Shown: piece after piece, positions 27,480-30,247 of the stretch | Layout of the letters: each line of letters opens with the position of its first letter | Position numbering within the stretch: position 1 is the first letter of the stretch | DNA from: Dehalococcoidia bacterium | Lineage (GTDB): Bacteria; Chloroflexota; Dehalococcoidia; UBA6926 | Length of the DNA stretch: 64,000 bases | Assembly: GCA_009841045.1 (NCBI GenBank) | Contig: VXMO01000028.1 | Location: 2,916-66,915 of the forward strand | Direction of reading: 5' to 3' | Notes under the pieces: model-generated | Seen by the model: only the letters and a program-made list of their open reading frames with translations | What the model was told of the DNA's origin: nothing | The model's database searches: none | Translations under genes and position numbers: made by a program

Positions 27480-29864
27480 CTAGCCCAAAGCCTCCACAAG
27501 AATCTCAATGTTTCTGCGGAACATGGTCAGGTACGTGTCTGCGCCGCTGCCCGCCGGTCCAAGGGAGCCGGTGAAGAGGGAGTAGAAGCCCGCTCCTGTT
27601 TCGTCGGCAATCGTACGCGCGATCCGTTCAGGGACCGTGTTCTCTCCGAAGACCGCCGGAACCCCCTCGTGCTCGATAATCTCGACGAGCTCAGCAAGCT
27701 GCTCCGCTGATGACTCCGTTTCCGTCGTTCCACTGGGAATCACCGTTCCCACCACTTCAAAGCCGTACAGCAAAGCAAAGTAGCTGTGCGTATCGTGCGA
27801 GGTGACGAGGATGCGGTGGTCGGCAGGGATTGTGGCAACCTGCTGCTCGCTCCACGCGTGGAGCTCTTGCAACTGGGCCACATAGGCCGTGGCGTTAGCG
27901 GTGTAGGTCTCCGCGCCGGCCGGATCCATCATCGCCAGACGAGTGGCGATGTCAATGACCGCGGTCTGGACTCGAATCGGGTCAAACCAGAAGTGAGGAT
28001 CGTGCGTACCGTGGTCATGATCGTGGTGATCATGGTCGTCGTGCTCGTCCTCGTCTTCGTGGTCGTCATCCTCGTCGTGGTCATGCTCATCTTCATGGGC
28101 GTGCTCGTCCTCATGATGGTCATCAACGCCCAATCCGACGAAGGCGATGCTGCGAGGCTGCCCGCCGATGGGCCACGTGCGCTCAATCTCCCCATGTGGA
28201 AGATGGAACTCAATGATCTGGCCGCCAACCCTGTCTGAAAGGTACAGAAACTCGCCAACGACGATGAACGACGGAGAGTTGCTGCCTTCGAATGCCTCTA
28301 CAAGCTCGTAGGTTTCCTCTACTTCGCCGTGCTCCACGTGGATGACGTTCAAGAGCCCATCGTATGTCAGTACGTACAGATGCTCACCATGAGCGTCAAA
28401 AGCCGCGCTGCGCACGGTCTTCTCAGCAGTTGGAGGCAGGACGAGCGACATTTCATCGCCCTCGGCGTCAATCATCCAGAGTCCGCCGTTCAGGCGAGCG
28501 CCGCCTTCCTCACTGTATGAGGCAGAGCCGAAGAAGTACTCGGAATCGTGATGCCCCCACAGAGTGCCAATGCGGGCCGCCGGATTCATGTCGGCCGGGT
28601 TCTCAATGAACGAATGCTCATATTCGCCGAAATGGGCATGAATGAACAACACTCCGCCGGCGCAGCCGAACACCGTGCCATGCGCATTGCTAGCCTCGCC
28701 GTGGAGGGCCGGGCATGCGCGGGACGCCCCGTCAAAGACGACATCGCCGCCCATCGTCCAGACCTCCGCCCCGAGCGGCAAGCTGCTTGTGCCCGAAACA
28801 CTCGGGTAGTCCGGATTGTTGGTCGTCACCAGAACGTTTCCATCCTCCAACACGATGCCTGCGCCGTGCTGCAGACCTGCCTCCAGCCAGGCCGGTTCGT
28901 ACTCGTTGAGCTCTTCTATCAGGTCGTGCTCCTCGAACAGAGCGATTCGACCCGACCCGTCATGGAAGATTGCCGTCCAGCCTGCATGAGGGTTGAAGTG
29001 GATAGGCCGGTTGTCAGTTGTGCCTACGGTCAGCCGCGAAACGGAATCCGTGACCAGGTCGAAGTGATCGCCGTGTTCCTCAAGGTAGATGCCGCCATCA
29101 AAGATGTGGACGCGGTCGTCATTGGCGGCATCATCTCCCGGTCCGCGGGCGAGAGCAAAGGCAAAGCGTCCGCTTGGGCTCGTGTAGAGCGTTGCCGCGG
29201 GCGCCGCCACCTGCAGGCTCCCCTCATCCAACTGTTCCGTTGTGAGGTCCAGGACGGACACGGTGGCGGAGTCTCCGTCCGCGATGAGAAGTCGGCCCGT
29301 GAGGTCCTCATGGCCCATCTCGTCCATGTGATCGTCATGGTCGTCATGCTCATCGTGATGGGCGCCGGTTTCCGCGAATTCAATCGGATTCACAGCTTCA
29401 GCGAGAGCAATGATCTTTGACTCGTCCGTGCTTGCGTTGTGGATGAGCTCCTCAAGCCACTGGCCCTCCAGCTGAAGACCAACGGTAAATACCAGGTCAG
29501 CATCCACAATGTTCGCAACATCTCGCGCGCCGGGCTGGTACGTATGCGGGTCGCCGCCCGGCGGGATGAGGCTCGTCACCTCTACGCGATCTCCGCCGAT
29601 ATTCTTGATCCAGTCGCCGACGATGTTGCTCGTCGCGATCACCTGCAGTGGCTCGTGATCCATCTGGGTATCCCCGGATGATCCGGTCTGCGATGTGTCG
29701 GTCTGCCCCGTGGTGGACGATGTATCAGCGGGTTGTGGTGTCGCTGTAGGATCGTCCTCGCTTTCGCACGCTGCAACGGCCAGGACCATTGCAAGCGCGA
29801 GAGTTAGTAACAAGAGGCCAAATGCTCTCGCTGGAATCAGCCTCCGTACTCCAAATGCCTTCAT
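27480..29864 (-). CDS. ZnuA/AztC-type metal-ABC-transporter substrate-binding lipoprotein with a large (about 390 aa) beta-propeller-like insertion in the His-rich loop
   Basis: Lipobox LAVAAC. N-lobe of cluster-A-I SBPs (IATSNIVGDWIKNIGG...DPHTYQP). His-rich stretch HHDEHDDHDDHMDEMGHED, then the insert with repeated xDGxxL/YVLTYDG-like strand motifs. Second stretch DDHHEDEHAHEDEHDHDEDDDHEDEDEHDDHDHHDHDHGTHDPHFWFDP, then the ZnuA C-lobe (ILVTSHDTHSYFALLYG...). Confidence 0.7.
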   Translation of the reverse strand: MKAFGVRRLIPARAFGLLLLTLALAMVLAVAACESEDDPTATPQPADTSSTTGQTDTSQTGSSGDTQMDHEPLQVIATSNIVGDWIKNIGGDRVEVTSLIPPGGDPHTYQPGARDVANIVDADLVFTVGLQLEGQWLEELIHNASTDESKIIALAEAVNPIEFAETGAHHDEHDDHDDHMDEMGHEDLTGRLLIADGDSATVSVLDLTTEQLDEGSLQVAAPAATLYTSPSGRFAFALARGPGDDAANDDRVHIFDGGIYLEEHGDHFDLVTDSVSRLTVGTTDNRPIHFNPHAGWTAIFHDGSGRIALFEEHDLIEELNEYEPAWLEAGLQHGAGIVLEDGNVLVTTNNPDYPSVSGTSSLPLGAEVWTMGGDVVFDGASRACPALHGEASNAHGTVFGCAGGVLFIHAHFGEYEHSFIENPADMNPAARIGTLWGHHDSEYFFGSASYSEEGGARLNGGLWMIDAEGDEMSLVLPPTAEKTVRSAAFDAHGEHLYVLTYDGLLNVIHVEHGEVEETYELVEAFEGSNSPSFIVVGEFLYLSDRVGGQIIEFHLPHGEIERTWPIGGQPRSIAFVGLGVDDHHEDEHAHEDEHDHDEDDDHEDEDEHDDHDHHDHDHGTHDPHFWFDPIRVQTAVIDIATRLAMMDPAGAETYTANATAYVAQLQELHAWSEQQVATIPADHRILVTSHDTHSYFALLYGFEVVGTVIPSGTTETESSAEQLAELVEIIEHEGVPAVFGENTVPERIARTIADETGAGFYSLFTGSLGPAGSGADTYLTMFRRNIEILVEALG

Positions 29865-30046
29865 TCTGTCTCCCTACCCTCTGTGGGTTGATGCTTGGCG
29901 GCCTCGACTAACCGCATTTGTCTGCCTTCTTTTTGAGATACAGTGTCAGTTTTCTCTTCGATCCACTCCGTCGATGTACGATAGCATCTATCCCGTTTCC
30001 TACTGCGCTTACACGGGGTTAGTCGCCTTTGCAGACAGGTTCATAT

Positions 30047-30059
30047 GATACTGAGTATC
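30047..30059. promoter_or_regulatory. perfect palindrome GATACTGAGTATC in a divergent promoter region (candidate operator)
   Basis: AT-richer 380-bp region between the divergent ZnuA-like and Cache-lipoprotein genes. The palindrome is seen directly, its function is inferred. Confidence 0.2.
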
Positions 30060-30247
30060 ACATTTCTCCAAGCGCCCACGTCACTTCGGAAGCGGAACAA
30101 ACAACGATACCCAAACCCCGAAAGGGGTGTCAATAGTATTGAGATTTGCAGGTGATCACCAGCCTCACAATGAGTCACCTTCGTACAATGGATTGATCGT
30201 GCCAGAGGCGCTCATTCAGCCGACCCGGGACTTGGCGTACAATATCA

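What the first reader, a model, noticed from the sequence alone, without database searches (positions are those of the whole stretch)
27480..29864. Metal-binding SBP lipoprotein with a beta-propeller-like domain inserted into its His-rich loop (possible AztC-AztD-type fusion)
Both lobes of a ZnuA/TroA-class substrate-binding protein are recognisable (N-lobe up to HHDEHDDHDDHMDEMGHED, C-lobe from DPHFWFDP). Between them sits about 390 aa where ZnuA proteins normally have only a short His-rich loop. The insert is bracketed by two His/Asp/Glu-rich metal-binding-type stretches. Its internal periodicity of short strands with xDGxxL / HLYVLTYDG-type motifs is what YVTN/WD-like beta-propellers show. 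Established knowledge: the periplasmic zinc metallochaperone AztD is a beta-propeller that hands zinc to the ZnuA-like SBP AztC, and streptococcal AdcA is a precedent for fusing a zinc SBP to a zinc chaperone (ZinT), though that fusion is end-to-end. An in-loop propeller insertion would put a chaperone/buffer domain exactly at the metal-entry loop. I see no permease or ATPase genes within 30 kb, so this may be an orphan SBP or scavenger serving a transporter encoded elsewhere.
Basis: partly seen in the sequence, partly recalled or inferred. Interest (0 to 1): 0.8.

Follow-up and report, generated by a model that had tools for sequence, protein, structure and literature searches.

The report
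Zinc-binding protein with built-in AztD chaperone
A membrane-anchored zinc-capturing protein of a Dehalococcoidia bacterium carries its own helper protein (the AztD zinc chaperone) spliced into the loop through which zinc normally enters; this design is common in Chloroflexota, I found no description of it in the papers I could search, and it independently supports a published model of how the two proteins hand zinc to each other.

Summary
ORF 27480-29864 (-) encodes a 794-aa lipoprotein. A complete AztD-type 8-bladed beta-propeller (residues ~186-581), flanked by two disordered His/Asp/Glu linkers, is nested between the two lobes of a cluster A-I metal-binding SBP, where AztC has its flexible loop (D-loop). 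NCBIfam AztD matches end to end (E 1e-41), and the AlphaFold model superposes on AztD crystal structures (TM 0.82-0.87). Both AztD zinc sites, its disulfide and the SBP His triad are conserved. It is not an artefact: 118 homologous protein clusters and at least 80 species-level genomes, almost all labelled Chloroflexota, share the architecture. In 44 of 80 related loci the gene directly precedes an ABC ATPase and ABC-3 permease, often with a FUR-family regulator and CobW GTPases. A palindrome, TGATAC-N3-GTATCA, marks these promoters, including the window's (30046-30060). The window has no transporter genes. On a syntenic relative's contig the transporter operon, with its own propeller-less SBP, lies 82 kb away behind palindrome-like boxes. 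Two differences from AztC: the fourth ligand Asp279 is an invariant Gly in this clade, and scores fall below NCBI naming cut-offs. I found no paper describing this. It is a new variant of a known kind, of moderate-to-high interest.

The parts
27480..29864 (-). Whole gene: 794-aa lipoprotein, a cluster A-I metal SBP with a nested AztD propeller (stop codon 27480-27482)
   Evidence: ORF list. The exact protein is on record as MYD36071.1, 'hypothetical protein', Dehalococcoidia MAG. Independent ENA and Logan assemblies carry it.
29766..29864 (-). Signal peptide with lipobox (residues 1-33, ...LAVAAC; Cys33 is the predicted lipidated residue)
   Evidence: Read from the sequence. Cys33 is invariant in 87/87 aligned homologues and Ala32 is >=90% conserved. 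AF2 predicts a helix at 12-32.
29664..29765 (-). Disordered Ser/Thr/Gln/Asp/Pro-rich tether (residues 34-67) between the lipid anchor and the SBP
   Evidence: pLDDT <50 for residues 34-67. Composition read from the sequence.
29382..29663 (-). SBP N-lobe (residues 68-161), with first metal ligand His107 in the invariant D105-P106-H107 motif
   Evidence: Pfam ZnuA and NCBIfam AztC first stretch. PDB SBP chains align to residues 60-176. His107 is present in 87/87.
29310..29381 (-). Linker 1 (residues 162-185), His/Asp/Glu-rich and disordered; N-terminal half of the split loop
   Evidence: pLDDT <50. Across the family the median length is 24 aa (17-52), ~60% H/D/E, median 4 His.
28122..29309 (-). 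Nested AztD-type 8-bladed beta-propeller (residues 186-581). Site 2: H264, H267, D269. Site 1: H289, H333, H388. Disulfide: C384-C401.
   Evidence: NCBIfam AztD E 1e-41 over model positions 2-354/356. phmmer to 6cmk E 2e-23 and 6ck1 E 4e-17 with ligand columns aligned. Foldseek TMt 0.82-0.87 to 6n01/6cmk/6ck1. Conservation counts. Ligand and disulfide definitions from PMC6689063.
28008..28121 (-). Linker 2 (residues 582-619), very His/Asp/Glu-rich and disordered; it ends in the invariant H616-x-H618-G619 motif just before the second SBP ligand
   Evidence: pLDDT <50. Median length 31 aa (14-84), ~64% H/D/E, median 8 His. The H-x-H-G-x-x-D-P-H motif is invariant in A1 and kept in nearly all distant nested lineages examined.
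27483..28007 (-). SBP C-lobe (residues 620-794), with ligands His624 (DPHFWFDP) and His690 (TSHD); Gly766 stands where the canonical fourth ligand Asp would be
   Evidence: Pfam and NCBIfam second stretch. Alignments to TroA, YfeA, 3mfq and PsaA, including the PsaA D280N control. H624, H690 and G766 are each 87/87. The whole SBP superposes on holo AztC 5w57 (TMt 0.84) across the insert.
30046..30060 (.). Perfect 7-1-7 palindrome TGATACT-N-AGTATCA, -196 to -182 from the ATG; predicted operator of a Fur-family (probably Zur) repressor
   Evidence: Sequence. It is the only match in the window at <=2 mismatches, against 0.04 expected. In 1.33 Mb of related loci, 40 of 51 matches (<=1 mismatch) lie within -350..+60 of SBP gene starts, a zone that is 2.6% of the sequence; several of the rest lie just upstream of the adjacent FUR gene. 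The same type of box lies upstream of the unlinked transporter operon in L088.
29934..29948 (.). Possible second, degenerate box TGACACTGTATCTCA (-84 to -70; 3 mismatches in the 12 specified positions); low confidence
   Evidence: Read from the sequence. Close relatives have a second box at the same distance: -83 to -85 in L003, L008 and L089.
30104..30133 (-). Sigma-70-like promoter match (TTGACA, 18 nt spacer, TATCGT); weak evidence only
   Evidence: Consensus scan: 2 sites found against 0.8 expected in shuffles.
29870..29875 (-). Shine-Dalgarno-like AGGGAG, 5-6 nt upstream of the ATG
   Evidence: Read from the sequence.

Best explanation
The gene encodes a lipid-anchored, extracytoplasmic zinc-binding component of an AztABC/ZnuABC-type (ABC-3) importer. 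A whole AztD zinc metallochaperone has been inserted into the protein's flexible metal-entry loop. Proposed mechanism, with each step marked as shown or inferred. (1) Under zinc limitation a Fur-family repressor, probably Zur, leaves the TGATAC-N3-GTATCA operator and the gene is expressed. This is inferred from motif enrichment and adjacent FUR genes. (2) The lipoprotein sits on the outer face of the membrane on a ~35-residue disordered tether. The lipobox and the disorder are shown; the location is inferred. (3) Zinc is collected by the His/Asp/Glu-rich linkers as low-affinity antennae, and by the two high-affinity AztD sites. The ligands are shown to be conserved; binding is inferred. (4) Zinc at AztD site 2 is passed within the same molecule to the SBP's three-His site (H107/H624/H690), probably via the invariant H616-x-H618 pair. 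Site 2 lies on the extension formed by the propeller's own N- and C-terminal strands, which are the ends joined through the linkers to the SBP loop stumps. This step is inferred from the published AztC-AztD transfer data and docking model. (5) The long disordered linkers let the propeller swing away so that the loaded SBP can dock on the permease (inferred). In this lineage the ATPase and permease are encoded elsewhere, in an operon that has its own propeller-less SBP of the same subfamily. The nested protein therefore acts as a second, high-capture SBP for a shared transporter, much as AdcA and AdcAII share AdcCB. This arrangement is shown on one syntenic relative's contig and inferred for this genome.
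For: Architecture and fold. Residues conserved in 87/87 homologues: SBP H107/H624/H690 and AztD site 2 H264/H267/D269. Site 1 is kept in 81-86/87, and the disulfide cysteines C384/C401 are invariant. Site 2 is the only transfer-competent site, sits on the N/C-terminal strand extension, and in the docking model lies ~10 A from the AztC site. The AztC D-loop with its His residues is required for transfer (PMC6689063, PMC7463823, PMC9175090). The insertion point is that loop: the insert ends 5 residues before the second ligand His. Site 1 has been lost in 6/87 sequences and site 2 in none, which fits site 2 being the functional core. Transport context: 44/80 related loci have the fused gene followed directly by an ABC ATPase and an ABC-3 permease, 41/80 have a FUR-family gene and 10/80 a CobW/COG0523 GTPase. 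The permease's best NCBIfam hit is AztB. Operator. Transporter elsewhere with a loop-only paralogous SBP on a syntenic 205-kb contig. A His/Asp/Glu loop is stated to indicate zinc specificity in PMC7463823. The third ligand is His, the zinc type, not Glu as in YfeA.
Against: There are no experimental data for any member. AF2 does not fix the relative position of propeller and SBP (pTM 0.58, linkers disordered), so there is no structural evidence for the intramolecular hand-off geometry. Scores are below NCBI's curated cut-offs for AztD (143 vs 400) and AztC (265 vs 350), and a Deinococcus-type Mn MntC model scores as well as AztC. The partner ATPase's best hit is a Mn-type MntA, and the FUR-family proteins cannot be assigned to Zur by HMMs. 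AztC Asp279, proposed to complete transfer and release AztD, is Gly in this clade, so the last step cannot be identical. [quoted passage not shown] The partner transporter of this particular genome has not been seen.
Confidence: 0.75

Rival explanations
1. The propeller and linkers act mainly as a surface zinc store or buffer, or as a competitive sink, and not as a kinetic hand-off device. Zinc reaches the SBP site from solution, and the insert only raises the local zinc concentration.
For: PMC6689063 reports that AztD knock-outs were not critical for growth but suggested a role in zinc accumulation in the periplasm. The linkers carry many His residues (median 4 and 8). Variants carry two AztD propellers or ZinT plus AztD in the loop, and one protein has five AztD repeats, which looks like capacity being increased. 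Propeller-less paralogues with long His-rich loops exist.
Against: Site 2, the transfer site, is invariant while the pore site 1 is lost in 6/87 sequences. A pure store would be expected to keep both. The insertion is always in the transfer loop and never at a terminus in the 118 + 85 nested proteins examined.
Confidence: 0.13
2. The system handles another metal (Mn, Fe, Ni or Co) rather than zinc.
For: The Mn-type MntC and MntA models score as high as or higher than AztC and AztA. The FUR-family regulator is unassigned, with best hits to Fur models. JGI names some partner permeases 'manganese/iron transport system'.
Against: The third SBP ligand is His, not the Glu of Mn/Fe proteins such as YfeA. 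There are His-rich loops (PMC7463823), a conserved AztD zinc site, CobW/COG0523 GTPase neighbours with ZigA/YjiA-type hits, and ZinT domains co-inserted in relatives.
Confidence: 0.07
3. As a gene unlinked from any transporter in a probably sponge-associated bacterium, the protein has a non-transport role, for example an adhesin or host-interaction protein like the laminin-binding SBPs Lmb and Lbp.
For: There is no transporter in the window. Sample and isolate names of many carriers suggest sponge metagenomes. Lmb/Lbp-type SBPs appear among the PDB hits.
Against: All metal ligands are invariant. Homologues sit in transporter operons. The promoter carries the same palindrome as the transporter operon of a syntenic relative.
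Confidence: 0.04
4. Assembly chimera or frameshift artefact joining separate aztC and aztD genes.
For: None found.
Against: A nested order (half an SBP, then AztD, then the other half) cannot arise from joining two adjacent genes. The identical protein occurs in two assemblies. 118/120 homologous clusters and at least 80 species genomes, including closed chromosomes, share the order.
Confidence: 0.01

Closest known systems
AztC + AztD of the AztABCD zinc importer (Paracoccus denitrificans; AztD also from Citrobacter koseri; PDB 5w56/5w57, 6ck1, 6cmk, 6n01)
   Same: Both components are present. One is a TroA/AztC-like cluster A-I SBP. The other is an 8-bladed AztD propeller with both zinc sites and the disulfide. 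The genomic company in relatives is also the same: AztB-like permease, ABC ATPase, FUR-family regulator, CobW/COG0523 (PMC6689063).
   Different: The two are one polypeptide, with AztD nested inside the SBP's flexible loop rather than a separate periplasmic protein that associates transiently. The loop is replaced by two long His/Asp/Glu linkers. In this clade the AztC ligand Asp279 is Gly. The protein is a lipoprotein of Chloroflexota. Scores are below the curated AztC and AztD cut-offs. In this lineage the gene is unlinked from the transporter.
AdcA of streptococci (ZnuA-like SBP fused end-to-end to a C-terminal ZinT domain), working alongside AdcAII on the AdcCB transporter
   Same: It is a zinc SBP covalently joined to its zinc-recruiting partner, it is a lipoprotein, and it coexists with a second SBP for one transporter. 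Compare the nested SBP and the loop-only SBP381 on one contig (PMC6689063 and PMC9175090 for AdcA).
   Different: The accessory domain is AztD (a beta-propeller), not ZinT. The topology is a domain insertion in the loop, not a C-terminal fusion. The NCBIfam AdcA model scores 116 against a cut-off of 700. Relatives of the window protein do carry ZinT, but again nested in the loop.
ZnuA with His-rich loop plus free periplasmic ZinT (E. coli, Salmonella)
   Same: Three-His metal site without the C-lobe Asp, an acidic His-rich loop next to the site, and Zur-type regulation. That ZnuA has a 3-His coordination is from my own knowledge.
   Different: Sequence similarity to ZnuA proper is low (90 bits against a cut-off of 268). 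The SBP is closer to the TroA/AztC/MntC branch. The accessory protein is covalently nested.
TroA of Treponema pallidum (PDB 1toa, 1k0f)
   Same: It is among the closest solved SBP relatives by sequence and fold. The His at the third ligand position is shared.
   Different: TroA has the Asp279 ligand, no His-rich loop and no inserted domain.

Membership tests
AztD zinc metallochaperone | Eight-bladed beta-propeller fold | tested here: met
   AF2 gives an all-beta domain at 188-578 with ~34 strands and pLDDT mostly >90. Foldseek's top 9 PDB hits are AztD structures, TMt 0.82-0.87, E 1e-29 to 1e-25. The fold description is from PMC6689063.
AztD zinc metallochaperone | Site 1 (pore) His triad: H124, H167, H218 in PdAztD | tested here: met
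   These align to H289, H333 and H388. They are conserved in 86, 81 and 82 of 87 homologues.
AztD zinc metallochaperone | Site 2 (transfer site) H99, H102, D104 plus the C-terminal His408 | tested here: met
   H264, H267 and D269 are in the HGDHxD motif, 87/87 each. The fourth ligand is variable, as in free AztD (68% conserved per PMC6689063). The window protein has H583/H584 at the equivalent distance, but this column is not conserved in the family.
AztD zinc metallochaperone | Conserved disulfide Cys214-Cys231 | tested here: met
   C384 and C401 have the same spacing to the site-1 His and are invariant in A1.
AztD zinc metallochaperone | Score above NCBIfam NF038015 curated cut-off (400 bits) | tested here: not met
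   142.8 bits, although the match is full length (model 2-354/356). Relatives score 112-262 bits.
AztD zinc metallochaperone | Free-standing periplasmic or surface protein that associates transiently with AztC | tested here: not met
   It is covalently nested in the SBP.
AztD zinc metallochaperone | Binds zinc and transfers it to the SBP | not testable with these tools
   Requires biochemistry.
AztC / cluster A-I metal SBP | Two alpha/beta lobes forming the cluster A-I SBP fold | tested here: met
   ZnuA Pfam matches in two stretches. The model superposes on 5w57 (TMt 0.84) and 5i4k (0.87) across the insert.
AztC / cluster A-I metal SBP | Three His ligands (including H138 and H204 of PdAztC) | tested here: met
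   H107, H624 and H690 are 87/87. H690 aligns with the TroA His and the YfeA Glu position.
AztC / cluster A-I metal SBP | Fourth ligand Asp279 (AztC, TroA; PsaA D280) | tested here: not met
   Gly766, 87/87. The column is fixed by alignments to TroA, YfeA and 3mfq, and by PsaA wild type versus the D280N mutant. The role of Asp279 is from PMC6689063. More distant nested lineages do keep Asp or Glu.
AztC / cluster A-I metal SBP | Short flexible His-containing D-loop (residues 117-133; H120, H122, H131) before the second ligand | tested here: inconclusive
   The position is occupied by the 458-residue insert. A conserved H616-x-H618-G motif 6-8 residues before H624 may be the remnant of the H131 region. 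I could not obtain a direct alignment to the PdAztC loop.
AztC / cluster A-I metal SBP | Score above NCBIfam NF040870 cut-off (350 bits) | tested here: not met
   265.1 bits, and it ties with the Deinococcus MntC model at 266.2 bits.
AztC / cluster A-I metal SBP | Encoded with AztA/AztB-type ATPase and permease | tested here: inconclusive
   Absent from the window. Present directly downstream in 44/80 related loci, and 82 kb away on a syntenic relative's contig. The permease's best hit is AztB at 212 bits against a cut-off of 280.
AdcA-type SBP-ZinT fusion | C-terminal ZinT domain following a complete SBP | tested here: not met
   There is no ZinT hit in the window protein, and the AdcA model scores 116 bits against a cut-off of 700.
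Zur regulon member | Fur-family operator in the promoter and zinc-dependent repression | tested here: inconclusive
   The palindrome is present and strongly enriched at homologous promoters and next to FUR genes. The regulator's subfamily is unassigned, and no expression data exist.

The most novel reading that the evidence does not exclude
The metal-entry loop of these SBPs is a modular socket into which zinc-recruitment cassettes are inserted, duplicated, combined and exchanged. The cassettes seen are AztD, ZinT, AztD+AztD, ZinT+ZinT and ZinT+AztD. Recombination at the low-complexity His/Asp/Glu linker-coding DNA would allow propellers to be swapped between otherwise near-identical SBP scaffolds. 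In the window's clade the covalently tethered AztD site 2 (or a linker His) may supply the fourth zinc ligand that the SBP has lost (Asp279 to Gly), creating a shared inter-domain zinc site that acts as a built-in gate.
Probability: 0.25. Interest if true: 0.75.

Novelty: new variant of a known kind. Interest (0 to 1): 0.6.

Why it matters
AztC-AztD is one of the few systems in which direct protein-to-protein zinc transfer has been dissected, but the transfer complex exists only as a docking model. This natural fusion is independent evolutionary evidence for that model. The chaperone is spliced into the loop shown to be essential for transfer, through the termini that carry the transfer-competent site. 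That site is invariant, while the other zinc site is dispensable. A covalent complex could make the otherwise transient hand-off state accessible to structural work. The finding extends the principle of an SBP fused to its metallochaperone (AdcA-ZinT) to a second chaperone family and to a different topology, domain insertion. It also shows that many Chloroflexota, including abundant marine and probably sponge-associated SAR202-type Dehalococcoidia, use such one-piece zinc harvesters. These proteins are currently annotated only as 'hypothetical' or generic SBPs, because Pfam returns no AztD match and NCBI's models score below cut-off. Finally, it yields a candidate Zur operator for the phylum.

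Tried and rejected
(1) Artefact hypothesis: rejected. (2) Pfam on the insert gave only sub-threshold Lactonase and WDR55 hits. Pfam returned no AztD family match, which explains why all homologues are annotated with PF01297 only. (3) 'Asp-to-Gly is the hallmark of nesting': rejected. Distant nested lineages keep Asp or Glu, and propeller-less paralogues of the same subfamily also have Gly. (4) Single origin of the insertion: a crude NJ tree of 127 propeller domains did not place the nested ones in one clade (11 separate groups). With 50%-identity representatives and no support values I treat this as unresolved, not as evidence for multiple origins. (5) Assigning the FUR-family neighbours to Zur with NCBIfam: inconclusive, all scores below cut-offs. 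(6) Sigma-70 promoter scan: only a weak match upstream of the palindrome, so no conclusion about operator-promoter overlap. (7) A direct residue alignment to PdAztC could not be displayed because 5w56 never ranked in the top five. The Asp279 = Gly766 equivalence therefore rests on the TroA, YfeA, 3mfq and PsaA (wild type vs D280N) alignments plus coordinate arithmetic. (9) I tried to find the partner transporter in the closed chromosomes of the closest relatives by matching contig lengths. This failed for the 1.85-1.99 Mb chromosomes but succeeded for a 205-kb contig. (10) Literature searches (AztD; AztD+AztC; ZnuA+propeller+zinc+fusion; ZinT+ZnuA+Chloroflexi) found no description of a nested AztD or ZinT. 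The library does not cover most subscription journals.


Full report
OBSERVATION. The window holds one uninterrupted 794-aa ORF at 27480..29864 on the minus strand. Pfam finds ZnuA (PF01297) in two separate stretches and nothing significant between them. NCBIfam is more informative. The AztC model matches the two flanks (E 7e-79). The zinc metallochaperone AztD model (NF038015) matches residues 195-576 over model positions 2-354 of 356 (E 1e-41). phmmer against PDB sequences recovers many cluster A-I SBPs in two stretches each, and the two crystallised AztD proteins over nearly their full length (6cmk E 5e-23, 6ck1 E 1e-16).

STRUCTURE. I built an AlphaFold2 model from an alignment of 87 full-length homologues. 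It has mean pLDDT 82. Both SBP lobes and an all-beta domain (residues 188-578, about 34 strands) are confident. The N-terminal tether (34-67) and the two linkers (162-185 and 582-619) are predicted disordered. pTM is only 0.58, so the mutual orientation of the propeller and the SBP is not determined. In Foldseek against the PDB, the nine best hits are all AztD structures (6n01, 6cmk, 6ck1; TM-score on target 0.82-0.87; E 1e-29 to 1e-25). Cluster A-I SBPs follow. Holo AztC (5w57) and MntA (5i4k) align across the insert with TMt 0.84-0.87, which shows that the two halves still form one normal SBP.

RESIDUE-LEVEL TESTS. PMC6689063 defines the following for AztD. Site 1, in the pore, is H124, H167 and H218. 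Site 2 is H99, H102, D104 and the C-terminal H408. Site 2 lies on an extension made of the N- and C-terminal strands plus a hairpin. A disulfide joins C214 and C231. The fold has 8 blades. [quoted passage not shown] In the HMMER alignments these residues map to H289/H333/H388, H264/H267/D269 and C384/C401. Across the 87 homologues, site 2 is 87/87 at all three positions and the cysteines are invariant. Site 1 is kept in 81-86 of 87 and has been lost in six sequences. In the SBP part, H107 (DPH), H624 (DPHFWFDP) and H690 (TSHD) are 87/87. The third ligand is His, as in TroA and the zinc type, and not the Glu of YfeA. The canonical fourth ligand is missing. The Asp of TroA, YfeA and S. suis 3mfq aligns with Gly766. 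The PsaA wild-type and D280N chains (FTDSIA vs FTNSIA) pin that column exactly. Gly766 is 87/87. PMC6689063 proposes that binding of AztC Asp279 is the last step that displaces the AztD ligands, so this clade cannot complete transfer in the same way. The Gly is not a requirement of nesting. More distant nested lineages keep Asp or Glu. Propeller-less paralogues of the same subfamily also have Gly. An H-x-H-G-x-x-D-P-H motif just before the second ligand is invariant in the family and kept in nearly all nested lineages examined. It lies where the AztC loop carries H131, one of the three His residues needed for transfer (PMC9175090).

WHERE THE INSERT SITS AND WHY THAT MATTERS. The insert, with its linkers, ends five residues before the second ligand His. 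That is the position of AztC's flexible D-loop (residues 117-133, before H138). This loop is essential for transfer, and in the docking model it enters the AztD pore while site 2 comes within ~10 A of the AztC site (PMC6689063 and PMC7463823). The termini of AztD pair with each other in the extension that carries site 2. A domain insertion through those termini is therefore geometrically simple, and it tethers the transfer-competent site next to the acceptor site. This is inference from published structures, not from my model.

NOT AN ARTEFACT, AND COMMON. The exact protein is on record as MYD36071.1, a 'hypothetical protein' from a Dehalococcoidia MAG. It was assembled independently in ENA and Logan assemblies. 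Of the 120 best homologous clusters (down to ~48% identity), 118 have the order N-lobe, AztD, C-lobe, and the other two are fragments. A scan of one genome per species returned 582 relatives. The best 80 are all nested, and nearly all are labelled Dehalococcoidia (one of them SAR202), Caldilineaceae or Chloroflexota. One is labelled Acidimicrobiia and one only 'bacterium'. Many isolate names look like sponge-metagenome bins; that is my reading of the names and was not verified. I also ran an exhaustive HMMER search with the propeller alone. It finds only 563 AztD clusters (at 50% identity) at E<=0.001. Of the best 150, 12 are full nested proteins, 10 are truncated nested ones, and 122 have a propeller without SBP lobes. 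Database names are 'hypothetical protein', 'metal/zinc ABC transporter substrate-binding protein' or 'ZnuA'. None of the AztD papers or the review I read mentions a fusion.

FUNCTIONAL CONTEXT. The window has no ABC-3 permease, ABC ATPase, FUR or CobW gene. tblastn with probes from related loci gives nothing better than E~0.1, while the positive control gives 7e-115. The gene lies between divergent sCache-type lipoprotein genes and rpsO-pnp. In relatives the picture is that of a zinc-uptake operon. In 44 of 80 loci the fused gene is followed directly by an ABC ATPase and an ABC-3 permease. In 41 of 80 a FUR-family gene is nearby, mostly just upstream. In 10 of 80 there are CobW/COG0523 GTPases. 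The permease's best curated match is AztB. The ATPase matches MntA and AztA types. All are below cut-off, and the FUR protein cannot be sub-typed. For the 'orphan' lineages I found one informative case, a 205-kb contig. There the nested gene (P0013) sits in window-like synteny without a transporter. About 82 kb away lies an operon of a 381-aa SBP, an ATPase and an ABC-3 permease. That SBP belongs to the same subfamily (Gly at the fourth-ligand position, the HDHGSHDPH motif, a lipobox-type N-terminus). It has only a ~50-residue His/Asp/Glu loop and no propeller. The nested protein thus looks like a second SBP feeding a shared transporter, analogous to AdcA and AdcAII.

REGULATION. A perfect palindrome, TGATACT-N-AGTATCA, lies at 30046-30060, which is 182-196 nt upstream of the ATG. 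It is unique in the window, with 0.04 matches expected at <=2 mismatches. In 1.33 Mb of related loci, 40 of 51 matches to TGATAC-N3-GTATCA (<=1 mismatch) lie within -350..+60 of SBP gene starts, a zone that is 2.6% of the sequence. Several of the rest lie just upstream of the adjacent FUR gene. Close relatives have two boxes, at about -196 and -84. The window has a degenerate copy at -84. Similar boxes precede the unlinked transporter operon in L088. The 7-1-7 geometry is that of Fur-family operators (my own knowledge). I propose it as the Zur operator of these Chloroflexota. The evidence is enrichment only.

MECHANISM. The most likely mechanism has five steps. (1) Zinc limitation derepresses the gene. 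(2) The lipoprotein is displayed outside the membrane on a flexible tether. (3) The linkers and the AztD sites collect zinc. (4) Site 2 hands zinc to the three-His SBP site within the same molecule, probably via H616 and H618. (5) The linkers let the propeller swing aside so that the SBP can dock on the permease. What is shown: the architecture, the fold, ligand conservation, operon context in relatives, and motif enrichment. What is inferred: the metal, the direction of transfer, the role of the linkers, the docking, and the regulator. I put 0.75 on the overall function (a zinc-uptake SBP with a built-in AztD chaperone), and less on the details.

COMPARISON AND NOVELTY. It works like AztC plus AztD, and in design like AdcA, an SBP fused to ZinT. 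It is not a strict member of either curated family. Scores are below NCBI's cut-offs, Asp279 is absent, and AztD is not free-standing. The topology, a chaperone nested in the client's transfer loop, is not described in the literature I could search. I rate it a new variant of a known kind.

SEEN ALONG THE WAY. (a) In a sister genome (L087) two tandem copies are 97-99% identical in nucleotides across linker 2 and the C-lobe, and 88-98% across the N-lobe. They are only 45-68% identical across the propeller, and the breakpoints fall at the linkers. Across the family, SBP and propeller identities are often decoupled, for example 0.61 vs 0.93 for P0035 and P0062. This suggests gene conversion of the scaffold, or cassette exchange of propellers. 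(b) The loop is a general insertion socket. Relatives show N-AztD-AztD-C. A second lineage shows N-AztD-C (85 proteins), N-ZinT-AztD-C (10), N-ZinT-C (7), N-ZinT-ZinT-C (4) and plain N-C (6). One protein of 2,432 aa carries five AztD repeats.

Noticed in passing
L087:8001-13180 (tandem genes P0014 and a 798-aa copy); also L003:8001-13029: Tandem paralogues of the nested gene are 97-99% identical in nucleotides across linker 2 and the C-lobe, and 88-98% across the N-lobe. They are only 45-68% identical across the propeller, with breakpoints at the two linkers. Family-wide, SBP and propeller identities are often decoupled (e.g. 0.94 vs 0.46, 0.61 vs 0.93). This suggests gene conversion of the scaffold or exchange of propeller cassettes.
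   Followed up: partly
Proteins P0308, P0198, P0313 (N-ZinT-AztD-C); P0379 (N-ZinT-C); P0377 (N-ZinT-ZinT-C); In a second, more distant SBP lineage the same loop hosts ZinT alone, two ZinT domains, or ZinT followed by AztD. In P0308 the N-lobe is 29-110, ZinT 121-295, AztD 339-699 and the C-lobe 721-894. A nested ZinT differs from the C-terminal ZinT of AdcA. These proteins have N-termini that look like ordinary signal peptides without a lipobox, and they keep the fourth-ligand Asp.
   Followed up: partly
Proteins P0020 (1216 aa), P0021 (1376 aa; locus L006:8001-12131), P0170; P0177 (2432 aa): Variants with two AztD propellers inside the loop (N-D-D-C), and one protein with five AztD repeats and no SBP lobes.
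   Followed up: partly
Proteins P0079, P0080, P0090, P0091, P0094, P0098, P0102, P0110, P0111, P0114, P0115 (910-991 aa): Nested proteins with an extra ~130-200-residue N-terminal region ahead of the SBP N-lobe. Pfam gives no domain for it in P0080.
   Followed up: no
L040:4422-5621 (399 aa), L088:8056-9201 (381 aa), L028:12689-14086 (465 aa): Propeller-less SBPs lie next to or in the same genomes as nested ones. Two belong to the same subfamily (Gly at the fourth-ligand position), with His/Asp/Glu loops of roughly 50 to 100 residues. One is a more distant ZnuA-like SBP with a ~150-residue His-rich loop that keeps Asp.
   Followed up: partly
window:30046-30060; loci L003-L089 upstream of SBP and FUR genes: TGATAC-N3-GTATCA is a candidate operator of a Fur-family (Zur-like) regulator in Chloroflexota. 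40 of 51 matches in 1.33 Mb sit in SBP promoter zones, and several others lie upstream of the FUR gene itself. I did not search the literature for this motif.
   Followed up: partly
A1 members P0010, P0013, P0016, P0060, P0065, P0071: Six of 87 nested proteins have lost one to three of the AztD site-1 (pore) histidines while keeping site 2 intact.
   Followed up: no
L005:12128-15815 (also L027, L031, L036, L040): Caldilineaceae zinc loci contain a conserved 387-aa protein with no family assignment and a WD40-type propeller protein between the permease and the CobW and FUR genes.
   Followed up: no
window:24663-26948 (-): The PNPase gene downstream ends in a long Arg/Gly/Asp/Pro-rich low-complexity tail (...RGDGGGRRFGDRDRGPRPGGNGRPPRRRPDGDRDRPRRPEGDRPPRRRM), seen.
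   Followed up: no
window:30248-32569 (+): Two divergently transcribed genes encode proteins with internally repeated sCache_2-like modules and N-termini that look lipoprotein-like. The first scores only below the Pfam threshold. GC content dips to 0.555 here against ~0.61 for the window. The palindrome lies in the shared intergenic region, so co-regulation cannot be excluded.
   Followed up: no
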